Of a stretch of 34,737 nucleotides of DNA, positions 2,240 to 29,074 are shown one piece after another. This DNA comes from Candidatus Campbellbacteria bacterium CG22_combo_CG10-13_8_21_14_all_36_13 (GTDB taxonomy: Bacteria > Patescibacteriota > Minisyncoccia > Phycocordibacterales > PCTT01), in assembly GCA_002771585.1 (NCBI GenBank), contig PCTT01000044.1, positions 1 through 34,737 of the forward strand. Reading direction: 5' to 3'. A program made the position numbers and the translations under genes. How positions within the stretch are numbered: the stretch's first letter is position 1; each line of letters begins with the position of its first letter. The notes under the pieces are model-generated. The model saw nothing but the letters and a program-made list of their open reading frames with translations, searched no databases and was not told the DNA's origin.

Positions 2240-3028
2240 ATGGAAAAATATTTAAAAATGCAGAAAGAATATTATAATGATGAAAGAATATCATCTGAAC
2301 AAGTAGTTGGAAACTATAAATGGCACGAGAACTTCCCTTACGAAACACAGCTTTTGTATAAAAATGGCGATATGAGAATGCCATTAATTACCAACTCTAA
2401 AGAAAAATATGCTTTAGATTTTGGGTGTGGACCTGGTAGGATGATAAATCGAATGTCAAAATTATTTAAAAGAGTTGATGGAGTTGATATCTCAGAAAAT
2501 CTACTTATTGAGTCAAAACAACAACACCCGGATAGTAATTTTTATATATCTTCAGGAAAGGATACGGGCTCAGCACCAAACGATACATACGATTTCGTAT
2601 ATTCAACAATAGCCATGCAACATATTGCGGTCCACAGCATAAGAATGGATATATTAAAAAGTATTCATAAAATTTTAAAACCTGGTGGTGTCGCTACAAT
2701 ACAAATGGCATTTAACGCGGAATATCCTTATATAATAAAAAGAAAAGATTTCAAAATAAAAGATTTTTATATAAAAATATTTAAAAAACAAAAAATACAT
2801 GCTGCGTGGAGCGAAGATCGAACAAATGCTACATCAACAAATTCTGGGTGTGATGTTGCGATAAACAAAGATGATTTGGAGAAATTAAAGAGCGATTTTA
2901 GCTCAATTTTTAAAAATGTAGATTATTGGTTTTACGATGTAAGCCTTATATACCAAAATTTAAATGGAGAAAGGCACGCTCCTAAGTATTGGCCTACTCA
3001 TTGGATATTTATTCATGGAACAAAATAA
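2240..3028 (+). CDS. class I SAM-dependent methyltransferase
   Basis: It has motif I LDFGCGPGRM, VDGVDISENLL and LKPGG. Confidence 0.8.
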   Translation: MEKYLKMQKEYYNDERISSEQVVGNYKWHENFPYETQLLYKNGDMRMPLITNSKEKYALDFGCGPGRMINRMSKLFKRVDGVDISENLLIESKQQHPDSNFYISSGKDTGSAPNDTYDFVYSTIAMQHIAVHSIRMDILKSIHKILKPGGVATIQMAFNAEYPYIIKRKDFKIKDFYIKIFKKQKIHAAWSEDRTNATSTNSGCDVAINKDDLEKLKSDFSSIFKNVDYWFYDVSLIYQNLNGERHAPKYWPTHWIFIHGTK

Positions 3029-3638
3029 ATTAAAAATCAAGGCGATATTATTTGACCTAGATGGTGTATTAGTAAATATGCCAGACGGACACTATGAAGC
3101 CTTAAATATGGCCCTGTCTCTTTTTGGATCAACAATTAACAGAGACGAGCATGAACATGTTTTCAACGGATTACCAACAAGAAAAAAATTAAAGAAAATG
3201 GAGGCTATGGAAAGATTGCCCATTGGTCTAATAGAATTAATAAACGGAATCAAACAAAAATATACGAAAGAAATAATACCAAAATATTGTGTCCCAGATT
3301 ATTCAAAGATAATATTACTCCAACAACTAAAAAAACGTGGTTTTTTGCTAGGATGTTGCTCAAATTCAATAAAAGAAACCCTTCATATAATGCTAAAAAG
3401 TGCGCAAATTTTTGATTTTTTTGATTTAATAATCGGAAATGATGAGGTAAAAGAACCAAAACCACACCCGGAAATGTATTTATCTGCTTTTAAGATACTT
3501 AATTTAAAACCTGATGAGTGTATTATAGTAGAAGACTCTCCACACGGAATAGAGTCAGCAAAAGCCAGTGGCGCTAAGGTTTTTGAGGTACGTGGTACTG
3601 AGGATGTAAATCTATCTTTATTTAAAGACATTTTATAA
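3015..3638 (+). CDS. HAD-superfamily hydrolase (phosphatase / beta-phosphoglucomutase-like)
   Basis: It has HAD motif I ILFDLDGVLV and a C-terminal VEDSPHGIESAKASG. I start it at the internal ATG 3015 (MEQNKLKIKAILFDLDG) rather than the track ATG at 2964, which lies deep inside the upstream gene. Confidence 0.8.
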   Translation: MEQNKLKIKAILFDLDGVLVNMPDGHYEALNMALSLFGSTINRDEHEHVFNGLPTRKKLKKMEAMERLPIGLIELINGIKQKYTKEIIPKYCVPDYSKIILLQQLKKRGFLLGCCSNSIKETLHIMLKSAQIFDFFDLIIGNDEVKEPKPHPEMYLSAFKILNLKPDECIIVEDSPHGIESAKASGAKVFEVRGTEDVNLSLFKDIL

Positions 3639-3653
3639 AATAAAAAATTTATT

Positions 3654-4400
3654 ATGATAAATATAATTATTCCAATGGCAGGACTCGGATCACGCTTCAA
3701 AGAAGCTGGTTATACATTTCCAAAACCATTAATAGACGTTGGTGGAAAAACAATGATAGAAGTGGTTATAAACAACCTAAGACCAAAAAATGATTACAGG
3801 TTTATTTTTATCTGCCAAAAAGAACATTACGAAAAATATGATTTGTTTAATATTCTAAAAAATGCAACAAACAATAACTTTGAGGTGGTAAAAATAGACG
3901 GAGTTACTGAGGGTGCGGCTTGTACTGTTTTGTGTGGCATAAATTATATAAATAATAATGACCCTTTAATTATTGCGAATTCAGATCAGTTTATAGATAT
4001 TAAAATTGATGATTTCATTGAAGAAGCAAAAAAAAGTAAATCTGATGGAATGATAATGACATTCAAAGCAAGTCATCCAAAATGGAGTTATGTACGCCTA
4101 GATAATAATAAAAAAGTTATTGAAACAGCAGAAAAGGTGGTGATATCAGATAAGGCCACAGTTGGTATATATTATTTCAAAAAAGGTTCTGACTTTGTAA
4201 GTGCCGCTGAGTCAATGATACAGAAAAATATACGACACAATAATGAGTTCTATGTATGTCCTGTATATAATCAGCTAATAATAGAAGATAAGATAATTTA
4301 TATATACAACATTGAACCGGAGCAAATGCATGGACTAGGAACACCTGAGGATTTGGTTGTCTTCCAAAAAAAGATTGGGGATGGAAGTATAGTTATATAA
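3654..4400 (+). CDS. sugar-phosphate nucleotidyltransferase-fold protein
   Basis: The N-terminus IIIPMAGLGSRF...PKPLIDVGGKTMI is typical of NTP-transferase/GT-A fold enzymes in polysaccharide loci. Confidence 0.7.
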   Translation: MINIIIPMAGLGSRFKEAGYTFPKPLIDVGGKTMIEVVINNLRPKNDYRFIFICQKEHYEKYDLFNILKNATNNNFEVVKIDGVTEGAACTVLCGINYINNNDPLIIANSDQFIDIKIDDFIEEAKKSKSDGMIMTFKASHPKWSYVRLDNNKKVIETAEKVVISDKATVGIYYFKKGSDFVSAAESMIQKNIRHNNEFYVCPVYNQLIIEDKIIYIYNIEPEQMHGLGTPEDLVVFQKKIGDGSIVI

Positions 4401-6223: not shown

Positions 6224-7088
6224 AATGTTAGCCAAAATAAAAAATAAAATACTTAGATTATATATTGGTTTTAAAAAAGAAACACTTGTTGAAAAAAATA
6301 ACAGGGAGGAATTTTTAAATTCTATAAAAAATATTCAAAAACTAGATAGACCTGACTATGGCGGGTGGAATAGCTATATAAAAAGATTACATGTATATAT
6401 TTCCAAAAATGATCCAAGAAGCTTTCTTAGGTGGAAGCCAATAACTGAGAGCATGTTTTCTAGCGCCAGCAAGTGCGAGTTTGATTATTTAATTACAAGC
6501 ATAAATAATGATAAACTATTAAAAGCTATTGAAGAAACATGGGTAGGAAATCCACCAAAATATAAACACTACAAAAAAAGTAGTAGTAACTTTGTACACA
6601 CAGCTTATAATCTTTCACAACTTATAGATCTTTTTAAAATCGATGTAAAAACACTAAACAGCATTGTGGAATTTGGTGCTGGTTATGGCTGTATGGCTAA
6701 ACTAATAAATAACCTAGGGTTTGTTGGCAAATATACAATTTTCGATATACCAGAGTTTCTCGCACTTCAAAAATATTACCTTCATTCATCTAAAATAATG
6801 AGTAATTTTAAATTTATAGACAAAATAGATAAATTAGAGGCTGTAAATCCAGATATACTTATTTCCACATGGTCTTTAAGCGAATCTCCAATCAGTCTTA
6901 GAGATAAATTCTTAAAAAAAATTGGTAAACCTAAATATATACTAATTGCATATCAAGAAAATTTTAACTCAATAGATAATAAAAAATATTTTGAGACCTT
7001 AAAAGGACTTATGTCTGAGTATGAATGGACTAATAAAACCATTTCACATGTTCCTGGAAATTATTATTTGTTAGGAAAAAAAATATGA
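6210..7088 (+). CDS. putative sugar O-methyltransferase-like protein (tentative)
   Basis: It has the Gly-rich motif VEFGAGYGCMAKL followed by IFDIPE. The start could be ATG 6210 or 6225. The TGA stop overlaps the next ATG (ATGA). Confidence 0.5.
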   Translation: MKKYKMLAKIKNKILRLYIGFKKETLVEKNNREEFLNSIKNIQKLDRPDYGGWNSYIKRLHVYISKNDPRSFLRWKPITESMFSSASKCEFDYLITSINNDKLLKAIEETWVGNPPKYKHYKKSSSNFVHTAYNLSQLIDLFKIDVKTLNSIVEFGAGYGCMAKLINNLGFVGKYTIFDIPEFLALQKYYLHSSKIMSNFKFIDKIDKLEAVNPDILISTWSLSESPISLRDKFLKKIGKPKYILIAYQENFNSIDNKKYFETLKGLMSEYEWTNKTISHVPGNYYLLGKKI

Positions 7089-7963
7089 TAATAGTAAAAA
7101 TAATGGGTGGAATAGGAAATCAGATGTTTCAATATGCAACAGGGCGCAGGGTTGCTAAAATCAATAATATTCATCTAAAACTTGATACAAGTAGTTTTGT
7201 AAAAGAAGACAAAGAAACAACACCCAGAATATTCAAGTTAGATCATTTTAATATCGATACTGAAATAGCCACAAAGCAAGATATTAGATATTTTAAGAAA
7301 TTTAAGAAAGTTCACACAAAGATTTTAGGCCGTATATATAACCCGCTTTTTGCAAACGACTCAAAATACATCACAGAAATAGGTTATGGGTTTAATCCAG
7401 GAATATTAAACCTGAAAGATGATATATATTTAGACGGCTATTGGCAAAGTGAAAAATATTTCAAAGATATCAGAGATACACTCATCAAAGAATTTTCACT
7501 AAAAACACCTGGGACTGCTTTTGAGGAACAAGCCCAAATTATAACTAATCATAATGCAATATCTATACATATAAGAAGGGGCGATTATGTATCAAATACT
7601 AGCTTGGCAAAAAATTATGGTGTTTGCGGTTTAGATTATTATATGGAGGCAATAGAATTAGTTACCCAGAAGGTAGAAAATCCGCATTTTTTTATTTTTT
7701 CTGATGATATCAGCTGGGCCAAAGAAAATCTTAAAATCACCTACTCACATTCATATGTATCAAGTGAATATATAAAAGATTATGAAGAGATAATATTGAT
7801 GTCCAAATGCAAATACAACATAATAGCAAACAGCTCATTTTCATGGTGGGGAGCATGGTTAAACAACAATCCAAATAAAATAGTGATTGCACCAAAAAAA
7901 TGGTTTAGGGATGAATCTTGGATTCCAAAGGATATAATCCCAGAAACATGGTTAAGAATATAG
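7085..7963 (+). CDS. alpha-1,2-fucosyltransferase (GT11)
   Basis: It carries the GT11 motifs GGIGNQMFQYA, HIRRGDY and NSSFSWWGAWL. Confidence 0.9.
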   Translation: MIIVKIMGGIGNQMFQYATGRRVAKINNIHLKLDTSSFVKEDKETTPRIFKLDHFNIDTEIATKQDIRYFKKFKKVHTKILGRIYNPLFANDSKYITEIGYGFNPGILNLKDDIYLDGYWQSEKYFKDIRDTLIKEFSLKTPGTAFEEQAQIITNHNAISIHIRRGDYVSNTSLAKNYGVCGLDYYMEAIELVTQKVENPHFFIFSDDISWAKENLKITYSHSYVSSEYIKDYEEIILMSKCKYNIIANSSFSWWGAWLNNNPNKIVIAPKKWFRDESWIPKDIIPETWLRI

Positions 7964-8069: not shown

Positions 8070-9824
8070 ATGTGCGGAATTGCAGGAATAATATATAAAG
8101 AAAAAAATGTTGTCGGAGAAAATGGTGTGCAAGATATGCTCTCTACACTAAACAAACGTGGGCCAGATGAATCTGGCGTATTTTGTGACAAACAATGTGT
8201 GCTTGGTCAGACTAGGCTTTCTATAATAGATATAAATTCAGGACATCAGCCGATGGTAGATGAAGAATTATCTATCACTTTTAATGGAGAAATATACAAC
8301 TTCAAAGAACTTAAAAGAGATCTGGAAGAAAAGGGTCATAAATTTAATACTCAATCAGATACAGAAGTAATCTTAAAAACATATATGGAATATGGCAACA
8401 AAACACCAGAGCACCTAGACGGCATGTTTGCTTTTGCAATCTGGGATAGTGCAAAAGAAGAATTATTTATGGCAAGAGATAGGTTTGGGAAAAAACCACT
8501 TTACTACACATTTGTTGATGGAAACTTTGTTTTTGCATCAGAAATAAAAGCAATCTTCAAAAATGGCTTAATTGAAAAAGATAAAATAAATACATCTGCA
8601 ATTGATGATTATCTTCATTTTGGATACATAGTCCCAGATAAAACAATATATCAAAACATTCATACACTACTCCCTGCTCATTATGGTGTTATAAAAGACG
8701 GATTGATAGAAACGAATAGATATTGGAATCTAGAAAAAAAAGAGTTGGATGTAACATTTGAAGAAGCAAAGGCAAAAATAAAATCCTTATTAGAGAGAGC
8801 GGTAGAAAAAAGAATGTTGGCGTCAGATGTAGAGATTGGTTCCCTACTCTCTGGTGGAGTGGATTCAACACTGGTGAGCTACCTAGCTCAAAAGCACTTA
8901 AGCCAACCACTTAAAACATTTTCTGTTGGATATGAAGGCTACAGAAATGAACTTCCTTTTGCAAGAACCGCTTCAGAAAAAATAGGAACAGACCACCACG
9001 AACTACCGATATCTTATGATGTAATTAATGAATTAGAAAAAATTATCTCATACATGGATGAGCCACACGCGGATTCATCAAACTTCCCACAACACCTTAT
9101 TTCTAAAATGACGGCAGAGCATGTAAAAGTAGTACTTACGGGGGACGGAGCTGATGAACTCTTTATGGGTTATGGTTGGTATCAACAAAAGTGGCATATG
9201 CCACGATGGAGAGTGGATTGGAAAATTTTAAATCCATTCCAAGCACACCAGCGAGCAATCACAATATTTAGAAAATATAGTAGAAATAAGTTAATAAAAA
9301 CTCACAAAAAAATAGATTCTTCATTTATAAAAAAAATCATTGGCAGTCTTAGTGATTCGTTTTATAAAATCAATATATTTGACCTTTCTGTATATCTACC
9401 GGCTCAATTACTTACAAAGATTGATCGTACAAGTATGATGCACGGACTTGAAGCGCGTGCACCCTTCTTAGACACAGAACTAGCGGAGTATGTATATAAT
9501 CTACCCAATGAATTTAAAATCTCTAAAACAGAGAATAAAATTATATTAAAAGAAATTTTAGCTGAGATATTTCCAAAAGAATTTGTATACAGGAAAAAAC
9601 AAGGATTTGGTGCACCTGTTCAAGAGTGGTTGAAAGAAAAGAAAATGATAGATTTAGTGAACAAAACACTAGAGGGTGATAATCCTATGTATAATTTTAT
9701 TGATAAAAAAACCACGCTAACTGTGCGTGATAATTTTTATAAAAATAAACGTAACCATGCACAGAAACTATGGTTGCTTCTTTCGCTCGGGCTGTGGTTT
9801 GAAAAACACTCTGGTACGTATTAA
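8070..9824 (+). CDS. asparagine synthase (glutamine-hydrolysing) family amidotransferase
   Basis: It has the N-terminal MCGIAG (Cys2 Ntn amidotransferase) and the PP-loop LLSGGVDST. The product is 584 aa. Confidence 0.9.
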   Translation: MCGIAGIIYKEKNVVGENGVQDMLSTLNKRGPDESGVFCDKQCVLGQTRLSIIDINSGHQPMVDEELSITFNGEIYNFKELKRDLEEKGHKFNTQSDTEVILKTYMEYGNKTPEHLDGMFAFAIWDSAKEELFMARDRFGKKPLYYTFVDGNFVFASEIKAIFKNGLIEKDKINTSAIDDYLHFGYIVPDKTIYQNIHTLLPAHYGVIKDGLIETNRYWNLEKKELDVTFEEAKAKIKSLLERAVEKRMLASDVEIGSLLSGGVDSTLVSYLAQKHLSQPLKTFSVGYEGYRNELPFARTASEKIGTDHHELPISYDVINELEKIISYMDEPHADSSNFPQHLISKMTAEHVKVVLTGDGADELFMGYGWYQQKWHMPRWRVDWKILNPFQAHQRAITIFRKYSRNKLIKTHKKIDSSFIKKIIGSLSDSFYKINIFDLSVYLPAQLLTKIDRTSMMHGLEARAPFLDTELAEYVYNLPNEFKISKTENKIILKEILAEIFPKEFVYRKKQGFGAPVQEWLKEKKMIDLVNKTLEGDNPMYNFIDKKTTLTVRDNFYKNKRNHAQKLWLLLSLGLWFEKHSGTY

Positions 9825-10522
9825 AAAAGTTTCTTTATTTGTTCGTATTCCTTAATTGCATTGCTATAATCTTCTGGACGACCAACATCAATCCAAAAAC
9901 TATCCTCTTCGTGGACATAGACCTCTTCACCACTCTCTATTGAATCTTTCATAAGTTGATCGAATCCATATGGTGTATTTTTTGAAAGTCCATCAATAAC
10001 GGCGCGGCTATAACAATTCACACCAACAGCCACATGGTAAGTGTGCGTTGGTTTTTCTATAAAATCCTGAAGTTTTCCCTCTTTATCAAAAGATAGTGTT
10101 CCAAACTCTATTTTCAATTCAAGTTTTTTTACTAACACAGACATTCTTCTATTATTATTCATATGCTCAATAAGAAAAACACCGTAATCTAGATCTGTTA
10201 TAGTATCTCCATTAATTGTAAGAAAATGTTCTGGTAGATCTTCTATCAAAGTAAGGGGCCCGATAGTATTTAGTGGTATCTCCTCGTGTGAATAATCAAT
10301 TTTTACACCCCACTTAGAACCATCTCCGGCATATGAAACAATTTGCTCTGATAAATGGTTAACTGCAATAGTTATGTGGTCGAATCCATATTTCTTCAAC
10401 TGTTGAATCAAGATGCTTAATATAGTCTCACCGTCTCTGATTTCAACAAGTGGCTTAGGTATATTGTTAGTATGTGGTTGTAAGCGAGTACCTCTACCAC
10501 CTGCTAATATTACTGCTCTCAT
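9821..10522 (-). CDS. sugar-phosphate nucleotidyltransferase
   Basis: The N-terminus is MRAVILAGGRGTRLQP...PKPLVEI. Its stop overlaps the convergent amidotransferase stop within TTAA at 9821-9824. Confidence 0.85.
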   Translation of the reverse strand: MRAVILAGGRGTRLQPHTNNIPKPLVEIRDGETILSILIQQLKKYGFDHITIAVNHLSEQIVSYAGDGSKWGVKIDYSHEEIPLNTIGPLTLIEDLPEHFLTINGDTITDLDYGVFLIEHMNNNRRMSVLVKKLELKIEFGTLSFDKEGKLQDFIEKPTHTYHVAVGVNCYSRAVIDGLSKNTPYGFDQLMKDSIESGEEVYVHEEDSFWIDVGRPEDYSNAIKEYEQIKKLF

Positions 10523-11517
10523 ATGCTATATATATTAGCCTTAAAGTGTTTTAAATTTTCAGCTTCAGAGTACCATTTAATAGTCTCCTCTATACCTTTT
10601 TCAAATCCAAATGTTGGTGTCCACCCTGTTAACTCCTTCAGTTTATCAGCTGATCCAATTAGCCTCTCAACCTCTGATGAATCTGGTCGCAAACGAACAT
10701 CATCTGTTTCTACATTAATTTTACTACCAGTAATTTCAATTATCTTCTTTACAGTGTCCCCAATCGTAATACCAATACCTGTCGCAATATTTATTTCTTC
10801 TCCTGTTGTAGAATCTTTTTCTGCTATAGCACAATAAGCATCTACAGTGTCTTTTACATAATTAAAATCACGAATAGTATCTGTGCGTCCAAGTTTCATT
10901 GTATCTACGCCAGACAAAATTTGAGTAATAATGGTAGGAATCACAGCCCTAGTAGATTGTCTTGGACCAAATGTGTTAAATGGTCTAACAATTACAACTG
11001 GAACACCAAAGGATCTGAAGAAAGATTCTCCTATATGATCTGCAGAAATTTTTGAAGCACTATATGGTGACTGTGCCTGAAGTGGATGAAGCTCATCCAT
11101 TGGTACATACTTTGCTGTTCCATATACCTCAGAAGTAGATGTAATCAATATACGCTTCACACCTTCTCTGCGAGCAGATTGTAATATATTAAGTGTACCT
11201 TTCGTATTTGTATCAAAAAATGAATCTGGAGCATCATATGAAAAAGGTATAGAAATAAGAGCTGCAAGATGAAAAATAAAATCACACCCTTTAACAGCAT
11301 CATCTACAAATCTTTGATCTCTTACGTCACCAGCAACAATTTCTATCTTCTCTAAAATCTCCTTAGGAAAAGTATCGAGCCAGCCCCAAGAGTTGAAAGA
11401 ATTATAAAATACAAAAGCACGAACAATAGCGCCTTTTTCTAGCAATCTCTCAACCAAATGACTACCTATAAAGCCATCTGCTCCAGTAACCAATACCTTT
11501 TGCCCTTTTAATTCCAT
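10519..11517 (-). CDS. NAD-dependent epimerase/dehydratase (extended SDR)
   Basis: It has VLVTGADGFIGSH, YSASK and RPFNTFGPRQ. I start it at ATG 11517 (MELKGQKVLVTG); the track start at 11619 would run into the divergent gene. Confidence 0.85.
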   Translation of the reverse strand: MELKGQKVLVTGADGFIGSHLVERLLEKGAIVRAFVFYNSFNSWGWLDTFPKEILEKIEIVAGDVRDQRFVDDAVKGCDFIFHLAALISIPFSYDAPDSFFDTNTKGTLNILQSARREGVKRILITSTSEVYGTAKYVPMDELHPLQAQSPYSASKISADHIGESFFRSFGVPVVIVRPFNTFGPRQSTRAVIPTIITQILSGVDTMKLGRTDTIRDFNYVKDTVDAYCAIAEKDSTTGEEINIATGIGITIGDTVKKIIEITGSKINVETDDVRLRPDSSEVERLIGSADKLKELTGWTPTFGFEKGIEETIKWYSEAENLKHFKANIYSI

Positions 11518-14469: not shown

Positions 14470-15234
14470 ATGAAAGAAATATTAAAAAAAATACCCTTCC
14501 TTAAAATTATTGTTGTCTATAGTAAGACCATTAAAAACAAGCAGAACTTCTTACAAAAGACACATCTATTCTTCAATTTTTTGAAAGACTTTTCTCTTTA
14601 CAGCAAGCTAGAGAAAAATATCGAAATTAAAGCAAAAACTGAAGACCTATTCCCTAGAATATACGACAATACAGCAGATACAAAAATAGACCCAATATAT
14701 TACCTACAAAGCACATGGTGCGCGGAAAAGATTTTTAAAGCAAAACCAGTAGAGCACTATGATGTAGGTTCACATTATTTAATGGTTGGAATCATTTCAA
14801 AATTTGTTCCAACTACCATGGTGGACATACGACCCCTCTCAGTAAACCTTGATTCTCTATCTTTCATAAAAGGAGACATAACACACTTACCTTTCGAAAA
14901 CGACAGTATTAATTCCCTATCATCAATCTGTGTAATAGAGCACATTGGACTAGGTAGATACGGAGACCCTCTTGATCAATTCGGCACAGAAAAATCTGCA
15001 AAGGAACTAAGTCGGGTTTTATCTAATGGAGGAAGTTTATATATATCGGTACCAGTAGATTCTAAGAGTAAAGTTTACTTTAACGCGCACAGGGCTTTCA
15101 CTAGAGATTATATATTGGGGTTATTCAAAGATTTGAATTTAATTGAAGAAAGGTATATATATGGAAAGCAGTTTTATAATGAATATAATTCAACAAAAGG
15201 TTTTGGTACTGGATTGTATTATTTTAGAAAATGA
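14470..15234 (+). CDS. SAM-dependent methyltransferase-like protein (DUF268-like)
   Basis: HYDVGSHY...GDITHLPFENDSINSLSSICVIEHIGLGRYGDPLD...GGSLYISVPV resembles DUF268/Methyltransf_11-type proteins. Confidence 0.6.
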   Translation: MKEILKKIPFLKIIVVYSKTIKNKQNFLQKTHLFFNFLKDFSLYSKLEKNIEIKAKTEDLFPRIYDNTADTKIDPIYYLQSTWCAEKIFKAKPVEHYDVGSHYLMVGIISKFVPTTMVDIRPLSVNLDSLSFIKGDITHLPFENDSINSLSSICVIEHIGLGRYGDPLDQFGTEKSAKELSRVLSNGGSLYISVPVDSKSKVYFNAHRAFTRDYILGLFKDLNLIEERYIYGKQFYNEYNSTKGFGTGLYYFRK

Positions 15235-16142
15235 AAAAAATAGTAATACTACAACACGGTGGTGGTGAGCTTACTAATCAGCTTTGGAATTACATAAGTA
15301 TATACGCTTATGGAAAAGAAAAAGGTGTTCCTGTGGTTAACAACTCTTTTTTTGAATACGGAAGCAATTTCTGTACACCCAAATCCCATCTTTCAAATTT
15401 ACTTCTATACAGACCATTTAAAAACCACCTAAAGAGGCGCAACTCTTTTAAAAGACAGCTCTGGAGAAAGTTCTACAAAATATACGTATATGTAGTAAAA
15501 ACTTTCAAAAAGAGCAGTATTGTCTCATCAGTTAACGGAAATAATGCTGTTACATACTTACCTCCTACAAGTACAGATTTTACAGAGCCAGATAAAAAAA
15601 CCCTATATTTTGATGGGTGGCTTTTTAGAAACCCTGTTGGTTTAGAAAAATACAGAGAAGATATTTTGAAATACTTTAGACCTGCAGATGTTGTAATAAA
15701 CAAAGTTGATAAATTTTTACAACCACACCTTGGAAAATACCTGGTTGGTGTGCATATAAGACAAGGAGATTACAAGGTCTTTAAAGGTGGAAAATACTTT
15801 GTAGAACAGAAACGTATACAGGAGATTATTAGTAAATATTTATCATTTTCTGGCAGAACAATAGAAAACACCTTTTTTATATTCACATCAGACGGATCAA
15901 TAGAAAAGGATGTATTTTCTGAATTAAATTATACCGTTTCTAATATGGGCCCTGTAGAAGATTTATTCTTGCTATCAAAAATGAAAGTGGTGCTTGGCTC
16001 TGACTCAAGCTTTGGAGATTTTAGTGCTTGGTACGGAAACATACCACATATAGTATTCCAGAAAGAAGCTATGGACTGGGAATATTACAAAGAGAAGAAT
16101 ATCTTTTTTGAGAATAAATACTCCACAATGGTGCATTATTAA
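15231..16142 (+). CDS. GT11-like glycosyltransferase (fucosyltransferase family)
   Basis: It has HIRQGDY and GSDSSFGDFSAWYG, and its N-terminus matches the GT11 layout. Confidence 0.7.
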   Translation: MKKIVILQHGGGELTNQLWNYISIYAYGKEKGVPVVNNSFFEYGSNFCTPKSHLSNLLLYRPFKNHLKRRNSFKRQLWRKFYKIYVYVVKTFKKSSIVSSVNGNNAVTYLPPTSTDFTEPDKKTLYFDGWLFRNPVGLEKYREDILKYFRPADVVINKVDKFLQPHLGKYLVGVHIRQGDYKVFKGGKYFVEQKRIQEIISKYLSFSGRTIENTFFIFTSDGSIEKDVFSELNYTVSNMGPVEDLFLLSKMKVVLGSDSSFGDFSAWYGNIPHIVFQKEAMDWEYYKEKNIFFENKYSTMVHY

Positions 16143-16151
16143 ACTATAAAT

Positions 16152-17078
16152 CTACTGCTTCTTGGCCCAATCAATATATCTATCAATACCTTCCCAAATT
16201 GAAACCTTTGGAGAAAATCCTAAACCTTCAGCAAAAGAAATATCTGCTGGAAATCTTTGAACTTCCCCTGGGCGAGCTGGTGCATTTACTATCTTTGAAT
16301 CAAACTTTTTTGCAATATACTCAACGATATCTTTCACTTTAGTATTTTTTCCACTAGCAAAGTTTATAACCTGTCCTTTTAATTCTGGATGATTAAGCAC
16401 AAGACTATATCCATCTACAACATCACTAACATGACAATAATCTCTCTCTGCAGCACCGTCACCAAAAATTGTTAGATTTTCGCCACGCATAGCTTTTGCA
16501 ATCATTATTGGGATCAACGCACCAAAACGACCATTTTTCTGTCTTTCTCAGAAGATATTAAACGGCCTTACAATAGTCACATCAGTATCAAACGATTTAA
16601 AATATGAATAACTTATACGATCAATAGCTGCCTTTGATGCGGCATAAGGACTATTTGGTCTTAGTTCTGAATGTTCATTAAGTGTTTCACCCTCTTCCAA
16701 ATCGTGTCCGTCGCCATAAACCTCACATGTAGAGGCTAGTATTAGCCTGTTATTATTTTTCTTTACCGCTTCTAATATATTATATCCACCAAGTATATTT
16801 GCATGGAAAAAAGCGAGTGGATCTTGGAGTGATTCATCTACATTTATTCTACTTGCGAGATGAAAGACGACATCGTGTCCCCTAACACTTTTATCAACTA
16901 TTTCACTATCGGTTATACTGCCCCAGATGACGTTAACGGATTCTTTTATAGGGCTTATGTTTCTTTCTGATATGTTAGAGTATGTATTTAAAATTGAAAC
17001 ATCATGACCTTCTTTTAACATCTTTTCACTTAAATGACTGCCCTTGAAACCACCCCCACCTGTAACTAAAATTCTCAT
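16152..17078 (-). pseudogene. NAD-dependent epimerase/dehydratase interrupted by one in-frame TGA (16548-16550); pseudogene or recoded gene
   Basis: Track ORFs 16548..17078 and 16152..16517 are in the same frame, and the second begins at a TTG that is simply the next Leu codon. The joined product reads ...VTIVRPFNIF[TGA]ERQKNGRFGALIPIMIAK... and carries ILVTGGGGFKGSH and YAASK. Nothing else is disrupted. Confidence 0.75.
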
Positions 17079-19469: not shown

Positions 19470-20402
19470 TTAAGATCGCTCGAGCCAATCAAACTTATTT
19501 AAATACTCTTTGACACAAATTTCCCAATCACGAGTTAGATGTGGAGCAATTTTTTTTAACCTAATGTTTTGTAATATTTCGGAACGCGGGCGTGGAGCAA
19601 AAAAATCTTTTTCTACAAATGAAGAATCTACCTCAATAACCTCAACCTCATCTTTTATACCCAAATCAATCATCATTGCAACTGCTACTTCATAACGATT
19701 ACATTTACCATCGCATGCACCATGATATATGCCATAATATTCATTGTCTACGAGAAAATGCAGCGACTTAGCTAAATCATAAGTATAGCAAGGTGTTCCA
19801 AACTTATCGTTAACAACATGTAATTGTTTTGAGCCATTATTTATTTGTTCAACTATCTTTTTTACAAACTTCTTATCTTTCTTGGGCCCACCACCAATCA
19901 TCCAGCCAGCCCTTACAACGATAGACTTAGTTGCTTTCTTTGCTTCAAGCTCTCCTTCATACTTAGACCTACCATAAACACTAAGTGGATTTGGCTTATC
20001 TTCTTCTCTGTACGATTCTTGTTCCCCGTCAAATATTCCAGCAGTTGAGATATACACAACAGGTATATTTGCAGAGTTTGCATATTTAACCACATGAGTA
20101 ACACCATTTCTGTTTGTGGCATAAGTTTCTTCCGAATTTAGCTCGCAATACTCCATATCTGTTTTAGCGGCTAGGTGTATTATGTAATCAGGCTTTATAT
20201 TTTCAAGATATTCTGCAACAGCATTTGCACTAGAAACGTCCAAATATTCAAGCCAATCCTCATTTAAATCAATGTCCGACGCATAGACTTTACATATATC
20301 CTTAAACTCAGAATATACAGCCTCTCCAAGCATCCCACCACAACCAGTAATTACTATTTTATCCTCTTTGTTTATCATTGTGTATTGATTATAACACTCC
20401 AA
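19470..20402 (-). CDS. SDR-family sugar nucleotide reductase (RmlD / dTDP-4-dehydrorhamnose reductase-like)
   Basis: It has IVITGCGGMLGEAV and YGRSK and is about 300 aa. The start may be ATG 20402 or 20378. Confidence 0.75.
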   Translation of the reverse strand: MECYNQYTMINKEDKIVITGCGGMLGEAVYSEFKDICKVYASDIDLNEDWLEYLDVSSANAVAEYLENIKPDYIIHLAAKTDMEYCELNSEETYATNRNGVTHVVKYANSANIPVVYISTAGIFDGEQESYREEDKPNPLSVYGRSKYEGELEAKKATKSIVVRAGWMIGGGPKKDKKFVKKIVEQINNGSKQLHVVNDKFGTPCYTYDLAKSLHFLVDNEYYGIYHGACDGKCNRYEVAVAMMIDLGIKDEVEVIEVDSSFVEKDFFAPRPRSEILQNIRLKKIAPHLTRDWEICVKEYLNKFDWLERS

Positions 20403-23398: not shown

Positions 23399-24761
23399 CT
23401 TTATTGGTAGATTCTATAAACCCTATCAAAGGATACAAAGCCACTGATAGGATAATTGGGTTAACTGGCATTCTAAACCTACTGTTTACAGTAAGACCGT
23501 TTGAGGGTGTGGTTACAACAAAGTAAAGCACTGTCACGAGAGCAAATACGACAGGAGCTGTCATCTTCTTCTTATGCCAAAGTAAATATATACCAAACAA
23601 AAACATGAGTGTTACAATACCCCAGAATATTCTCATCAAAAGTACTAATACAAAGGGTGATTTGACGTGAACCCAAACAGTTTTTAAGAATTCTTTTGGT
23701 GTATCCATCAACAAAGTTATAGCTGGTTTTGAAAGCGATTCTTTTGGCGTAAACCCAGCATATTGCAACACAGACAACATGCCGTCATGTGTAAAAAAAG
23801 TAAAAACATTTATAGCAGACACTTTTAGTAAAGATAAGGGGTATTTTTTTAAAACATCAAATGCTTCTTTGTTAAATTCTGGCGCCGTGTGAACAGTCAA
23901 TTTACTTACATCAATATTTCTATCACTTATAAATAACTTTCTTGCTTCATTAAAGCTAACACCGTTCTCTATAGACAACACAGACGGTACAAGCGTTACG
24001 TATAAATTGAGACTTGGCATAATAGTCATCCCGGGCACACCAAATACTTTATAGTTTCTATACAACCATGGTGATAAAACTACAACAAAAATACTAAGGA
24101 ATAACCCTATGTGTAAAAATGTTTTTTTCAACCCAATTCTTTTTCTAAAAAACCACCACATAACAGGTATTAAAAATATGGGATAAAATTGCACAACCGT
24201 TTTTATTAAAGATGATGCTCCTAATATAATAGAGAAAATTATTAGATACTTGATATTTAAGTTCTCTATATATTCCATAAATACAAGACAAGCAAGTAAA
24301 AATAAGAAAATAAAAAGAGTCTCTGTAAAAAATATAAAAGAAAAGAATACAAAGTTGGGTTCTATCGCAATAAAAAATCCTACAAATTTTGATATTTTGT
24401 CAGAATCTATTATTTTTTTAGACAACCTTAAAGCTAGTATCGGTATAAACGCACCTATAATTATTTGCATAACAACAGCAAAAATATAGCCATTAAACAA
24501 AAACAAAGAGAGTGCCAAGAAAAGTGGGTAAAGTGGAACATGTATTGGACTTGGTGATAACCCGTCTATAGAAAAACCATTACCATGGTATAGGTTCTGA
24601 CTAACTTCATAATACCAATCAGATCCATATATGGTTTTATCAAAATCACCATTATTTGCATCTAAATTAATATAAAAAAGAAAAATCCTTACAACAAGAG
24701 CGACGGCAAAAATTATTATCTCTAATTTATGTGTTTTTATAAAGTTTTTTATTTCGTTCAT
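23370..24761 (-). CDS. GT-C fold membrane glycosyltransferase (ArnT/PMT-like, GT39/GT83-type)
   Basis: The 463-aa polytopic protein has an acidic first loop (DANNGDFD). It is encoded with DPM1-like GT2 and GtrA genes, which would supply a lipid-linked donor. Confidence 0.7.
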
Positions 24762-25372
24762 TTTTCTAAAATAAAAAAGTGATGATAATTTGATTGAAAT
24801 GGCACGTAATCATTCTTAACAACGAAGTGTTTACTTAGGATCTCTTTGATCTTTTGTACAGAATAATCTTTTTTACCAATTTCCCAATAATGCTCACCAT
24901 TAAATGTGTGTACAGGATGATAAGGTATCTTACAAGCAAACCTTATTTCTTTTAAAAAAGGAACCTTTACAGAAAACTTAATCATTGGGCCAAAATGAGG
25001 GAGACTTATTATTACATATTTTTTTGAAACTCTTTTCATTTCGGATAATGCTGTCTCAAAGCTTTCAAATGGTATGTGCTCGAGCACTTCAAAGGCACAA
25101 GCAATATCAAATGAATTATCTTCAAATGGAAGCTGTAAAACGCTACCAACAACATCAGGATTGAGGTCTTCTGCTATATCTACACTTGTATATTGTGTAT
25201 CAGTATTTGTTTTTAAATAATTACCCAGGACGTTATCGCCAACACCAATCTCTAAAACATTGCCTGGTTTTAGTTTCAAAAGCTCATCAACTTGGTGAAA
25301 ATAACTACTCCATCTTTCTGGATATCCGTATGTTTGAAAATCATAATGTTTTTTATCTACTTGTTTTTCCAT
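24758..25372 (-). CDS. class I SAM-dependent methyltransferase
   Basis: It has VLEIGVGDN and [13 protein letters not shown] (Methyltransf_11-like). The TGA stop overlaps the next ATG. Confidence 0.8.
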
Positions 25373-26427: not shown

Positions 26428-27644
26428 TATTTCTTTACTAAATCATTCCACCCGTCAACAATATCTTTGTAATATTGCTCTTTTGTGGATACTTGCTCAA
26501 GAACCCGAGTATAGCACCTGAAACCCATTCCATGCACACCTACGTCATTAGACAAAAGACGGCTTAAGTATTCCTCAATACAGTCAGCGCGACCTATTTG
26601 GCAAACCATTGCATGCTGTGCGTGCACAAGAAGACCGCCAGAGCCAGCAATTCCTACGTCTGTTGTAACTATCGCCAATCTATTCAAAGACGCTTCTATC
26701 AAAGACATTCCATATCCCTCATAAAGCGATGTGTTTAAGAAAATATCAGAGCCTTTGTAGTATGAGTTTAAGTCATCCTGCCAACCTTCGAAAATGACGT
26801 TAGCTGATAGCTTATAGCTTTTAGCTTTTAGTTCGAGCGCTCTGCGCTCACGACCGTCTCCAACAATTACAAGGCCGGTTTTAGGATAATTTTTTACAAC
26901 TTTGGCAAATGCTTTGATTGCGACATCAACTGCTTTTTCTTTTTCTAATCTTGAGGCAATAAGAACTATTTTTTCAAATTGTGGATATTTTGCTCGCAAA
27001 TCAAAATTCGCTGGAGTATTTTCTATTACGTCTGCGTCAACAAAAATTGGTAAGATCTTTGGTTCTGTTTTTAGTTTGTATACACTGCCGTAAATAGAAT
27101 CTTTAATTCTTTTGCTCACAACCCTTATACCGTCTGCATATGGTATTACTCTCCTTGATATACGAAGACGACTTTTGTTTAAAAAACCTTTCTTAAAATA
27201 TGGACTAAGAAAATCTGTATGAATTTGTACCTGAAGCGGTATTTTAAAAGCTTTTGATAGTTTACTACCCACCAAACCACATTCAAAAGGGTCCTGACAA
27301 GTAATAACAAAGGCATTAGGAGTTAGCTTATAGCTTTTAGAGCCCAAAATACGATGACCAAGTTTTATAGCATCATGTATGTATAGCCAGCGACTGAAAG
27401 AATTTGTCGGATACAAAAAAACATTTTCTGAAACCTGAAACCTCGCACCTGAAACCTTGTGTTTTCTCGTAGAGAAAACAATTACATGTAATTCATTAAG
27501 TAGACCAGCATATCCAATAGCACGAGCTCTTACAGCACTTCCTTCTTCAAAAATCTTCCTATCTGTAGAAATCATCAGGACGCGAAGGCCCTGCTTAGTC
27601 TGTGCATCTACACTATCTTCTTTTGTTATATTTTGTTGGAACAT
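26427..27644 (-). CDS. glycosyltransferase family 4
   Basis: It has GDGRERRALE and YEGYGMSLIEASLNRLAIVTTDVG. It is a paralogue of 32087..33244. Confidence 0.85.
   Translation of the reverse strand: MFQQNITKEDSVDAQTKQGLRVLMISTDRKIFEEGSAVRARAIGYAGLLNELHVIVFSTRKHKVSGARFQVSENVFLYPTNSFSRWLYIHDAIKLGHRILGSKSYKLTPNAFVITCQDPFECGLVGSKLSKAFKIPLQVQIHTDFLSPYFKKGFLNKSRLRISRRVIPYADGIRVVSKRIKDSIYGSVYKLKTEPKILPIFVDADVIENTPANFDLRAKYPQFEKIVLIASRLEKEKAVDVAIKAFAKVVKNYPKTGLVIVGDGRERRALELKAKSYKLSANVIFEGWQDDLNSYYKGSDIFLNTSLYEGYGMSLIEASLNRLAIVTTDVGIAGSGGLLVHAQHAMVCQIGRADCIEEYLSRLLSNDVGVHGMGFRCYTRVLEQVSTKEQYYKDIVDGWNDLVKK
26801..26835. repeat. heptamer-periodic tract inside the GT4 CDS
   Basis: The tract reads TAGCTGA TAGCTTA TAGCTTT TAGCTTT TAGTTCG and encodes LKAKSYKLSAN on the minus strand. 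A related tract, TAGGAGT TAGCTTA TAGCTTT TAGAGCC, lies at 27317-27344 in the same gene. Confidence 0.7.
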
Positions 27645-27693
27645 GTTATGTTTATAAATTTTGAATTTAAAATTTTGAATTTCGATTCAATGT
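27645..27693 (-). repeat. AT-rich upstream module, copy A (abuts the start of GT4 26427..27644)
   Basis: The gene-sense read is ACATTGAATCGAAATTCAAAATTTTAAATTCAAAATTTATAAACATAAC followed by ATG. It shares TCGAAATTCAAAA...TTTAAATTCAAAATT with copy C. Confidence 0.75.
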
Positions 27694-28059
27694 TTAATTT
27701 TTTAATGTTGAAACAATCTTACCAAAAATAAGGGTGAGCTCCTGACACTCTTTCCAAAGTGCTCTAGTCTCGTTTCCATTACCTGAAATAGCCGTATTCA
27801 ACATCCTGAGCCAATGCTTGGTCTCCTGGGCTTCCTTTTTACAAATATGTATCTTATTCCTAAAATCCTTCTTTGAACTCGCCCCATTAGCTTCCATATA
27901 GTTAGCTCCTATACTTGTAGCGCTTCTAATTAATTGATTGATTATTGGTTTATTGATTGAATCCTGTTTTAAACCTTTGCAAAAGATAATAACATTTTCG
28001 CCAAACTTTGCAGTTCTTTCTTCTAGATCATAATTCTTTTTGTTTTCTAATTCATTCAT
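27694..28059 (-). CDS. four-helix-bundle protein (23S rRNA intervening-sequence protein family, TIGR02436-like)
   Basis: It has SIGANYMEANGASSKKDF...KIHICKKEAQETKHWL. The first ATG is at 28059; the track start at 28074 is a TTG inside the repeat arm. Confidence 0.85.
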   Translation of the reverse strand: MNELENKKNYDLEERTAKFGENVIIFCKGLKQDSINKPIINQLIRSATSIGANYMEANGASSKKDFRNKIHICKKEAQETKHWLRMLNTAISGNGNETRALWKECQELTLIFGKIVSTLKN

Positions 28060-28180
28060 CCCGTTTAGAGGCAAGTCGTGATCATAGCAACACCCTTGAT
28101 TATTTTTTTATAAATTTTGTTTCGGCTTGTCTCCATTACATTATTTCTATTTTAATCGTGACCCCGACCTCTAACGGGAT
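28058..28180. repeat. inverted-repeat hairpin element, type A (arms 28058-28082 and 28155-28180, 72-nt loop)
   Basis: ATCCCGTTTAGAGG pairs with CCTCTAACGGGAT with one bulged T, and TCGTGAT pairs with ATCGTGA as a second helix with two G.U pairs on the plus strand. The four-helix-bundle ATG overlaps the arm end. Confidence 0.85.
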
Positions 28181-28827: not shown

Positions 28828-28872
28828 TTGTATTTAATTGAATCTTTGTGTTCTAATAAAAATTTTATAAAC

Positions 28873-28956
28873 AAAAGGGGACAAGGGTTTACGGTACATT
28901 TACGGACTTCCTCAGTACCAACCTTTATCGGGGAGTCCTCCCCCTCACCCCCTTTT
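28873..28956 (-). ncRNA. candidate structured RNA element (long helix enclosing a 54-nt GC-rich interior), 5' of the NYN gene
   Basis: On the minus strand AAAAGGGGGUGAGGG pairs with CCCUUGUCCCCUUUU over 15 bp including 3 G.U pairs; those three become A.C mismatches on the plus strand. Inner complementarities are GGACU/AGUCC and GGUAC/GUACC. A U-rich tract follows the helix. Confidence 0.35.
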
Positions 28957-29014
28957 ATTTACAAAATAATATATTCATATTTTTGTTTTGCCTTCTAAAT
29001 TATAGTTCATAGTC

Positions 29015-29072
29015 ATTGAAAATTATGTAATTGAAAATTGATTGAAAATTGTAAATTGTAAATTGAAAATTC
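29015..29072. repeat. heptamer tandem array (ATTGAAA/ATTGTAA units)
   Basis: The array reads ATTGAAA ATTATGTA ATTGAAA ATTG ATTGAAA ATTGTAA ATTGTAA ATTGAAA and lies directly 3' of the GT4 stop. Confidence 0.85.
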
Positions 29073-29074
29073 GT

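What the first reader, a model, noticed from the sequence alone, without database searches (positions are those of the whole stretch)
16545..16553. In-frame TGA at the invariant glycine of the SDR N-x-[FY]-G-P/E-R-Q motif in an otherwise intact epimerase
The 308-codon epimerase reading frame (16152-17078) has a single interruption: RPFNIF[TGA]ERQ. Two paralogues in this window read RPFNTFGPRQ (10519..11517) and RPYSVIGPRER (31003..31974) at the aligned position, so the TGA replaces a conserved Gly. The second in-frame TGA in the window (30521-30523) also replaces an invariant Gly. UGA=Gly is the known reassignment of translation table 25 (SR1/Absconditabacteria and Gracilibacteria). The window nevertheless argues against wholesale reassignment. 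I counted 37 gene ends: 21 TAA, 10 TAG and 6 TGA. Four of the TGA ends are ATGA start/stop overlaps, and no other gene contains an internal TGA. If TGA were read through, those six genes would gain only 1, 3, 3, 3, 10 and 10 codons before a TAA or TAG, so the window cannot decide. The options are two independent GGA-to-TGA pseudogenisations, low-level Gly suppression, or a lineage with rare UGA-Gly use.
Basis: partly seen in the sequence, partly recalled or inferred. Interest (0 to 1): 0.6.

Follow-up and report, generated by a model that had tools for sequence, protein, structure and literature searches.

The report
Nonsense-mutated sugar epimerase gene
A sugar-modifying enzyme gene in a tiny groundwater bacterium carries a stop codon where a conserved glycine should be, and this is an ordinary recent knock-out mutation, not a changed genetic code.

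Summary
The minus-strand gene 16152-17078 is a 308-codon NAD-dependent epimerase/dehydratase with one in-frame TGA at codon 177 (16548-16550). All 32 aligned homologues and paralogues have Gly there, and the nearest genomic orthologue reads GGA. A contig from an independent groundwater sample carries the same TGA.

- The genome (657 kb, 89% complete, Patescibacteria-like) encodes RF2 with an SPF motif.
- No tRNA(UCA) was found in it, nor in a 97%-complete genome of the same genus.
- Four relatives each carry both RF1 and RF2.
- TGA ends 65 of 638 called genes, 15 of them in NTGA start/stop overlaps.
- Only four genes carry an internal TGA. Three are at Gly and one is at an invariant Trp, so no single reassignment fits them all.
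- Two other genes are interrupted by TAA.

The second TGA in the window (30521-30523, GIY-YIG) is polymorphic with GGA across samples. GC-to-AT mutation pressure makes GGA the commonest source of new TGA codons in this genome.

Verdict: a recent GGA-to-TGA nonsense allele in a variable glycan-synthesis island. Low interest.

The parts
16152..17078 (-). NAD-dependent epimerase/dehydratase (extended SDR) reading frame, 308 codons, interrupted once
   Evidence: Translation. Pfam PF01370 over residues 3-239 and PF16363 over 4-299. 86% identical to the nearest full-length homologue P0001.
16548..16550 (-). In-frame TGA at codon 177, in place of a conserved Gly (orthologue codons GGA and GGC)
   Evidence: G in 32 of 32 aligned sequences. 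The same letters stand in an independent contig from run X6.
30305..30583 (-). Small GIY-YIG (UPF0213-type) gene, 92 codons, interrupted once
   Evidence: Pfam PF01541 over residues 5-74, E 4.5e-16. PDB homologues 1zg2 and 1ywl.
30521..30523 (-). In-frame TGA at codon 21 (Gly of the YxG motif), polymorphic with GGA
   Evidence: At 30523 the plus strand reads C instead of A (GGA on the coding strand) in X1 (depth 8.98 of 8.98) and X4 (2.5 of 2.5). X3 (depth 3.8) keeps TGA.
10519..11517 (-). Intact paralogue (GDP-mannose-dehydratase-like SDR), RPFNTFGPRQ; ends in TGA inside an ATGA overlap
31003..31974 (-). Intact paralogue (SDR epimerase), RPYSVIGPRER; ends in TGA
19470..20402 (-). RmlD-type SDR reductase, a further member of the same glycan-synthesis island
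   Evidence: Pfam RmlD_sub_bind, E 1.8e-56.
7085..7088 (+). ATGA start/stop overlap, one of four in the window (the others are 10519-10522, 15231-15234 and 24758-24761): TGA used as a terminator

Best explanation
The TGA is a plain nonsense mutation. A single G-to-T change turned the GGA (Gly177) codon of an epimerase/dehydratase gene into a stop. The organism reads the standard bacterial code, and RF2 terminates at UGA. The allele therefore yields a 176-residue fragment that keeps the Rossmann fold and the catalytic Tyr-x3-Lys but lacks the C-terminal substrate-binding part, so the gene is inactive or nearly so. The gene sits in a large, patchily distributed surface-glycan island with three other SDR paralogues, so its loss is tolerable. 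The mutation is recent, because the frame after the stop is still open and as conserved as the part before it. That the stop replaces Gly is what AT-biased mutation predicts: in this genome GGA is the commonest codon one GC-to-AT step from TGA. Shown: the stop, the ancestral Gly, RF2, the lack of tRNA(UCA) in the sequence held, TGA used as a terminator, other nonsense-interrupted genes, and the GGA/TGA polymorphism at the second site. Inferred: loss of function, recency and the mutational cause.
For: 1. Termination machinery. One RF-domain gene is found in G000. It carries SPF and scores 343.7 bits on prfB against 222-226 on prfA. Four relatives (two of the same genus, G001 and G002, plus G015 and G019) each have one PAT-type and one SPF-type factor.

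2. No decoder. None of 39 tRNAs in G000 has a TCA anticodon; the Gly tRNAs are TCC, CCC and GCC, and Trp is CCA. In G001 (97% complete), 36 of 37 Rfam tRNA matches were named by ARAGORN and none is TCA. The 37th has a CUG anticodon loop.

3. TGA terminates genes. It ends 65 of 638 called genes, and 15 of those sit in 4-nt NTGA overlaps with the next called start. Off-frame TGA is abundant inside genes, 3,210 and 7,851 occurrences over 179,099 codons, while only 4 validated genes hold one in frame.

4. The four internal TGAs do not share one meaning.
- Epimerase: Gly in 32 of 32 aligned sequences.
- GIY-YIG: Gly in 2 of 2 PDB homologues.
- AAA_25 ATPase, G000:C19:8412-8414: Gly in 19 of 23, Lys 2, Asp 1, Asn 1.
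- Small membrane protein, G000:C47:25148-25150: Trp in 4 of 4.

5. TAA interruptions exist too. A pyrD-like gene (G000:C40:7399-7401) has its DHO_dh domain, residues 52-345, spanning the stop at 83. A large serine recombinase (G000:C8:1799-1801) is a weaker case.

6. Expected spectrum from this genome's codon usage. P(Gly | new TGA) is 0.22 under uniform mutation, 0.60 if only GC-to-AT changes occur (Trp 0.25), and 0.94 if only G>T/C>A changes occur. The observed 3 Gly and 1 Trp fits the GC-to-AT model. MutY and Fpg were not found over their cut-offs in the 89%-complete assembly.

7. Orthologue codons are GGA and GGC.

8. At the second site both alleles, GGA and TGA, occur across samples.

9. 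Accessory context. Same-genus genomes hold only paralogues about 35% identical. The window is a glycosyltransferase/epimerase island.

10. Published criteria. Shulgina and Eddy 2021 (PMC8629427, passages read) treat RF2 present together with no tRNA(UCA)Gly as evidence that UGA is a stop, and warn that in-frame stops in pseudogenes arise non-randomly from particular codons.
Against: Three of four internal TGAs fall at Gly; under uniform mutation (p = 0.22) three or more of four has probability of about 0.04. TGA-interrupted genes (4) outnumber TAA (2) and TAG (0). The expected shares are about 0.21-0.25, 0.48-0.53 and 0.26-0.28, which gives P of roughly 0.02-0.035. Detection was not symmetrical, however: the uniform pair scan gave 2 TGA, 2 TAA and 0 TAG. 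The region after the stop shows no decay: 89% identity to P0001 against 84% before it. That fits a recent mutation but equally fits continued full-length translation. The differences seen among contigs are mostly transitions, not G>T (table 1), so a G>T-dominated spectrum is not shown. G000 is 89% complete, and RF1 and several tRNAs are missing from it, so absence of tRNA(UCA) there is not proof; G001 covers that gap only by kinship. No raw reads, RNA or peptides were available.
Confidence: 0.88

Rival explanations
1. Leaky UGA. The organism keeps RF2, but UGA is read through at a useful rate by a near-cognate or unassembled tRNA. TGA-interrupted genes would then still give some full-length protein, and such alleles would persist.
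For: TGA interruptions (4) outnumber TAA (2) and TAG (0) against expectation. The epimerase frame after the stop is undecayed. The split AAA_25 fragment P0125 is on record from 8 contigs and 3 member sequences, so that allele is not a one-off. For the TGG-to-TGA case, read-through by tRNA-Trp would restore the wild-type residue (the mechanism is recalled general knowledge).
Against: No suppressor tRNA was found in G000 or G001. No structure stands out downstream of the epimerase stop (z +0.95). Near-cognate read-through would place something other than Gly at a position where all 32 aligned sequences have Gly. The counts are small and detection was biased towards TGA. The GGA allele coexists at the second site.
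Confidence: 0.07
2. The lineage uses UGA as a rare glycine codon (a table-25-like or transitional code).
For: Three internal TGAs align with conserved Gly. Table 25 exists in other Candidate Phyla Radiation lineages (PMC8629427). GGA and TGA would be synonymous, which could explain the polymorphism at 30523.
Against: RF2 with SPF is present here and in 4 of 4 relatives checked. No tRNA(UCA) was found. 65 genes end in TGA, 15 in NTGA overlaps. One internal TGA is at an invariant Trp. Among all matches listed across 40 relatives, only one match outside the window's own gene carried a stop, and that is the gene's own terminator. About 0.002% of codons are in-frame TGA, against 6.9% Gly codons.
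Confidence: 0.01
3. The TGA is a sequencing or assembly error, or a minor variant that the assembler picked; the population's gene is intact.
For: Depths are low, about 2-9 per contig. At the other site the possible source run X1 reads GGA while the window reads TGA. G-to-T is a familiar library-damage artefact (recalled).
Against: An independent sample's contig (X6, depth 4.1) has the identical sequence over 16100-16918. No alternative letter was reported at 16548-16550 in any of the 4 runs laid. No full-length protein 90% or more identical exists among 5.8 billion clusters; the best is 86%.
Confidence: 0.04

Closest known systems
Nonsense-mutation pseudogenes in variable surface-polysaccharide loci of bacteria
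   Same: A single-base stop in one of several redundant sugar-nucleotide enzymes inside a glycosyltransferase-rich, patchily distributed island. The frame is otherwise intact.
   Different: Nothing essential differs. The host is a reduced-genome Patescibacteria-like groundwater organism, and the allele is known only from metagenome contigs.
Translation table 25 (UGA=Gly) of Absconditabacteria and Gracilibacteria
   Same: TGA stands where homologues have Gly in three genes. The organism belongs to the same broad radiation. The genome is small and AT-rich (35.9% GC).
   Different: RF2 is retained, no tRNA-Gly(UCA) was found, TGA ends about 10% of genes, in-frame TGAs occur in 4 genes only, and one of them is at Trp.
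dTDP-glucose 4,6-dehydratase / LegB-type extended SDR enzymes
   Same: The best NCBIfam matches are TIGR04180 (LegB, 201.6 bits) and TIGR01181 (RfbB, 200.2 bits). The protein has GxxGxxG and YxxxK and the full-length fold.
   Different: Both scores lie far below the curated cut-offs (475 and 365.1), so the substrate is not assigned. The gene is interrupted.

Membership tests
Translation table 25 lineage (UGA = Gly) | Loss of release factor 2 (prfB) | tested here: not met
   An RF2 gene with an SPF motif lies on G000:C40, scoring 343.7 bits on prfB against 222-226 on prfA. An RF2 is also present in G001, G002, G015 and G019.
Translation table 25 lineage (UGA = Gly) | A tRNA-Gly with anticodon UCA | tested here: not met
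   0 of 39 tRNAs in G000 (89% complete). 0 of 36 ARAGORN tRNAs, plus one weak match with a CUG loop, in same-genus G001 (97% complete). Absence from an incomplete assembly is not proof.
Translation table 25 lineage (UGA = Gly) | Many in-frame UGA codons at conserved Gly columns across the proteome | tested here: not met
   Four validated genes out of about 640 carry an internal TGA: three at Gly and one at Trp. Codetta itself was not run.
Translation table 25 lineage (UGA = Gly) | UGA not used as a terminator | tested here: not met
   65 of 638 called genes end in TGA, 15 in NTGA overlaps with the next start. Four ATGA overlaps lie in the window.
Extended SDR NAD-dependent epimerase/dehydratase (Pfam PF01370) | N-terminal Rossmann GxxGxxG, catalytic YxxxK, full-length domain match | tested here: met
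   TGGGGFKGSH at residues 6-15. Y145 and K149 are invariant in A1. PF01370 profile 1-238 of 240, E 5.7e-60.
Extended SDR NAD-dependent epimerase/dehydratase (Pfam PF01370) | Uninterrupted reading frame (a functional gene) | tested here: not met
   One TGA at codon 177. Under table 11 the products would be 176 aa plus, at best, a 121-aa re-initiation fragment.
Selenoprotein gene (UGA = Sec) | tRNA-Sec, a SECIS hairpin just after the UGA, and Cys in homologues | tested here: not met
   ARAGORN found no tRNA with a TCA anticodon. The downstream fold is no better than shuffles (z +0.95). Homologues have Gly, not Cys. selA, selB and selD were not searched.

The most novel reading that the evidence does not exclude
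AT-biased mutation in this RF2-bearing Patescibacteria lineage keeps producing GGA-to-UGA alleles, and UGA is leaky enough for them to linger (4 TGA against 2 TAA and 0 TAG interruptions). If so, the population shows the raw material and tolerance that could have preceded the UGA=Gly reassignment in other Candidate Phyla Radiation lineages (Gracilibacteria and Absconditabacteria).
Probability: 0.05. Interest if true: 0.55.

Novelty: already known. Interest (0 to 1): 0.12.

Why it matters
It matters mainly as a caution. In small AT-rich genomes, in-frame TGAs that replace conserved glycines can look like table-25 recoding, yet they arise naturally because GGA is the commonest codon one GC-to-AT step from TGA. 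Checking RF2, the tRNA set, terminator usage and the residues aligned to all internal stops settles the matter; here one internal stop is at Trp and two are TAA. For annotation, this MAG should be translated with table 11. The epimerase, the GIY-YIG gene and four other genes should be flagged as interrupted (pseudogenes or strain alleles).

Tried and rejected
- A sliding 40-codon codon-usage score could not separate true split genes from antisense frames: the off-frame 95th percentile (16.7 bits) was close to the in-frame median (18.0 bits). I dropped it for a scan of called-gene pairs plus Pfam.
- A scan for short upstream fragments cut off by a stop (62 candidates: 43 TAA, 11 TAG, 8 TGA) gave only non-coding-looking leaders. 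I judged this by eye, and it did not recover the GIY-YIG case because that gene was not in my gene call.
- Three further TAA or TAG junctions (L094-L096) proved to be separate genes or gene ends.
- Of the pairs, only those with a gap of 3 or more codons went to Pfam: 16 of 32 TAA, 3 of 7 TAG and 1 of 3 TGA. The window's own TAA pair (2964-4400) was checked as two separate genes, and the epimerase. The C22 12226-13014 TGA pair looked like an antisense frame and was not tested. Pairs with an ATG within 2 codons of the stop were taken as separate genes without testing.
- The AAA_25 query found no usable PDB homologue, and two relatives gave conflicting residues, S and G, until the large protein search settled on G in 19 of 23.
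- Laying contigs: run X1 barely covers 16100-16586 (depth 0.22), and X3 and X4 cover it only partly, so they say nothing about the epimerase site.
- The apparent internal TGA in a G015 epimerase match is that gene's own terminator.
- An N-terminal extension of RF2 through an upstream TGA, seen in the TGA-sense call, is non-coding leader with a terminator-like hairpin and not a programmed frameshift.
- The search of earlier findings returned nothing for this genome.
- HGT from a table-25 donor was considered. The nearest homologues (86%, then 75% and below) are full-length proteins; the few that carry source names are named Patescibacteria, Niyogibacteria or Pacebacteria, and the three genomic loci come from Saccharibacteria and Niyogibacteria MAGs. 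Nothing pointed to a table-25 source, but their genetic codes were not checked.

Full report
**Observation.** The window is contig C35 of a 656,729-bp, 47-contig assembly. It is 35.9% GC, 89% complete and 0.27% contaminated. The feature lies on the minus strand. Window 16152-17078 translates to a 308-codon frame ending in TAA, with one internal stop at codon 177...VTIVRPFNIF*ERQKNGRF.... The codon is TGA, which is plus-strand TCA at 16548-16550. Read through, the protein is a full-length extended-SDR epimerase/dehydratase. Pfam PF01370 matches residues 3-239 (profile 1-238 of 240, E 5.7e-60) and PF16363 matches residues 4-299. The best NCBIfam matches are LegB-type and dTDP-glucose 4,6-dehydratase models, both far below their cut-offs. 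In an alignment with 30 database homologues (64-86% identical) and the two window paralogues, all 32 have Gly at the column of the stop. The two closest genomic orthologues read GGA and GGC there, so one G-to-T change explains the TGA. It is codon 21 of a 92-codon GIY-YIG/UPF0213 gene and aligns with the Gly of WYTG/FYGG in two solved homologues.

**Is the allele real?** Only Logan contigs were available, not raw reads. Sixteen groundwater or aquifer runs hold the stretch or part of it, and four were laid. An 865-nt contig of run X6, from a different sample, covers 16100-16918 without a single difference, so it carries the epimerase TGA. No alternative letter was reported at that codon, but X1, X3 and X4 hardly cover it. 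At the second site, plus-strand 30523 reads C instead of A, which is GGA on the coding strand. This holds in X1 (depth 8.98 of 8.98; a possible source sample) and in X4 (2.5 of 2.5), while X3 (depth 3.8) keeps TGA. Both alleles therefore exist in the population.

- *Release factors.* G000 has one release-factor gene. It carries the SPF tripeptide and scores 343.7 bits on the prfB model against 222-226 on the prfA models. It has no upstream frameshift segment; the leader is non-coding. RF1 was not found in this 89%-complete assembly. Two same-genus genomes and two same-order genomes each have one PAT-type and one SPF-type factor.
- *tRNAs.* ARAGORN finds 39 tRNAs and a tmRNA in G000, none with a TCA anticodon. 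The Gly tRNAs are TCC, CCC and GCC, and Trp is CCA. In the 97%-complete congener G001, 37 Rfam tRNA matches resolve to 36 named tRNAs and none is TCA. The remaining weak match has a CUG anticodon loop.
- *TGA as terminator.* A simple codon-usage gene call gives 638 genes ending in TAA 410, TAG 163 and TGA 65. Fifteen of the 65 TGA ends are 4-nt NTGA overlaps with the next called start. TGA is frequent off-frame inside genes, with 3,210 and 7,851 occurrences over 179,099 codons.

**Other interrupted genes in the genome.** I scanned same-frame neighbouring gene calls with no stop between them and found 32 TAA, 7 TAG and 3 TGA pairs. I sent those with a gap of 3 or more codons to Pfam, read through with X: 16 TAA, 3 TAG and 1 TGA. 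I also called genes with each stop in turn read as sense. Six genes turned out to be validated or likely interrupted.

| Gene | Place | Stop | Residue in homologues |
|---|---|---|---|
| Epimerase | window 16548-16550 | TGA | Gly, 32 of 32 |
| GIY-YIG | window 30521-30523 | TGA | Gly, 2 of 2 PDB homologues |
| AAA_25 ATPase | G000:C19:8412-8414 | TGA | Gly 19 of 23; Lys 2, Asp 1, Asn 1 |
| 135-aa membrane protein | G000:C47:25148-25150 | TGA | Trp, 4 of 4 |
| pyrD-like dehydrogenase | G000:C40:7399-7401 | TAA | Gly 6 of 7; Ser in the closest relative |
| Large serine recombinase | G000:C8:1799-1801 | TAA | not determined |

For the AAA_25 gene, the domain match (residues 59-242) spans the stop at 149. 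Its 248-aa C-terminal fragment is on record from 8 contigs. For the pyrD-like gene, the DHO_dh match (residues 52-345) spans the stop at 83. The recombinase is the weakest case: the zinc-ribbon match ends at the stop, although PDB alignments run across it. No TAG case was found. The TGA at an invariant Trp means no single reassignment makes all four TGA genes whole. UGA=Gly would put Gly at that Trp, and UGA=Trp would put Trp at a conserved Gly. Together with the TAA cases, this points to ordinary nonsense mutations.

**Why glycine?** From this genome's codon usage (173,803 codons), new stops under uniform mutation split into TAA 0.48, TAG 0.28 and TGA 0.25, and a new TGA comes from GGA with probability 0.22. 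If only GC-to-AT changes occur, TGA comes from GGA 0.60, TGG 0.25, CGA 0.11 and TGC 0.04. If only G>T/C>A changes occur, GGA accounts for 0.94. The observed 3 Gly and 1 Trp fits the GC-to-AT model well. MutY and Fpg were not found over their cut-offs in the assembly, which fits weak repair of oxidised guanine but does not prove it. Two points count against this account. The differences among laid contigs are mostly transitions. And TGA cases (4) outnumber TAA (2) and TAG (0), with P of roughly 0.02-0.035, although the unbiased pair scan gave 2, 2 and 0.

**Context and age.** The window is a surface-glycan island. It holds about a dozen glycosyltransferases, two nucleotidyltransferases, methyltransferases, an asparagine-synthase-like amidotransferase, an RmlD-type reductase, three SDR epimerase/dehydratases and ABC-transporter parts. 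Small selfish-looking genes (PD-(D/E)XK, 23S-rRNA-IVP, NYN, GIY-YIG) are interspersed. True orthologues of the epimerase (61-64% identity) occur in 2 of 40 relatives. The two same-genus genomes hold only paralogues about 35% identical. The part after the stop is as conserved as the part before it, 89% against 84% identity to P0001, and the same pattern appears among intact homologues. The mutation is therefore recent. No structure stands out downstream of either stop (z +0.95 and -1.66), which argues against a SECIS-like element.

**Comparison with what is known.** UGA=Gly (table 25) is established for Absconditabacteria and Gracilibacteria. In the passages of Shulgina and Eddy 2021 that I read (PMC8629427), genomes labelled Gracilibacteria that lack tRNA(UCA)Gly and keep RF2 are taken to use UGA as stop. 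The same paper says that in-frame stops in pseudogenes arise non-randomly from particular codons and mislead code inference. This case is of that kind. The other papers were seen only as listings and abstract starts.

**Verdict.** The recoding readings are rejected and the pseudogene (nonsense allele) reading is supported, with confidence 0.88. Residual possibilities are leaky UGA read-through (0.07), an assembly or minor-variant artefact (0.04) and true UGA=Gly (0.01). Interest is low (0.12). The finding is useful as a caution for genetic-code calls in AT-rich reduced genomes.

Noticed in passing
G000:C40:6607-7647 (minus strand; stop at 7399-7401), outside the window: A pyrD-like dihydroorotate dehydrogenase gene is interrupted by an in-frame TAA at codon 83. 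Six of 7 relatives have Gly there and the closest has Ser. The gene is absent from both same-genus genomes.
   Followed up: yes
G000:C47:24956-25363 (minus strand; stop at 25148-25150), outside the window: A 135-codon membrane protein of no Pfam family has an in-frame TGA where all 4 homologues have Trp (a TGG-to-TGA change). One homologue lies on a 127,623-bp contig, the same length as G001:C2.
   Followed up: yes
G000:C19:7968-9191 (stop at 8412-8414) and G000:C8:1244-2809 (stop at 1799-1801), outside the window: Two mobile-element-type genes are also interrupted: an AAA_25 ATPase by TGA and a large serine recombinase by TAA. The recombinase sits beside tRNA-Lys, tRNA-Cys and tRNA-Leu genes that are duplicated on C23.
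   Followed up: partly
G000 whole assembly: No RF1 (prfA) gene was found although TAG ends 163 of 638 called genes. Both same-genus genomes have RF1, so it probably lies in the missing 11%.
   Followed up: partly
G000:C47:32675-32749 and G001 (locus L074 1500-1574): A tRNA-Ile with a TAT (UAU) anticodon is present in both genomes, next to tRNA-Ile(GAT). This is an uncommon way to read AUA.
   Followed up: no
window 29029-29071 (intergenic, 28828-29074): A low-complexity run of TTGAAAATTG-like units draws summed contig depths of 117-776, against roughly 2-30 in the neighbouring bins, and many loose ends in all four runs. The motif is therefore shared by many contigs in these communities. Similar motifs show up as odd open leaders upstream of several genes.
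   Followed up: no
window 27500-28150: A cluster of linked differences among contigs of the four runs lies around the 23S-rRNA-IVP-family gene (27694-28074). It is a strain-variable patch inside the glycan island.
   Followed up: no
window 30584-31002: A 420-bp gap between the GIY-YIG gene and the next epimerase holds GC-rich palindromic stretches and AT-rich direct repeats (cgaaatccgaaat...). No ORF lies in it, and it was not analysed.
   Followed up: no
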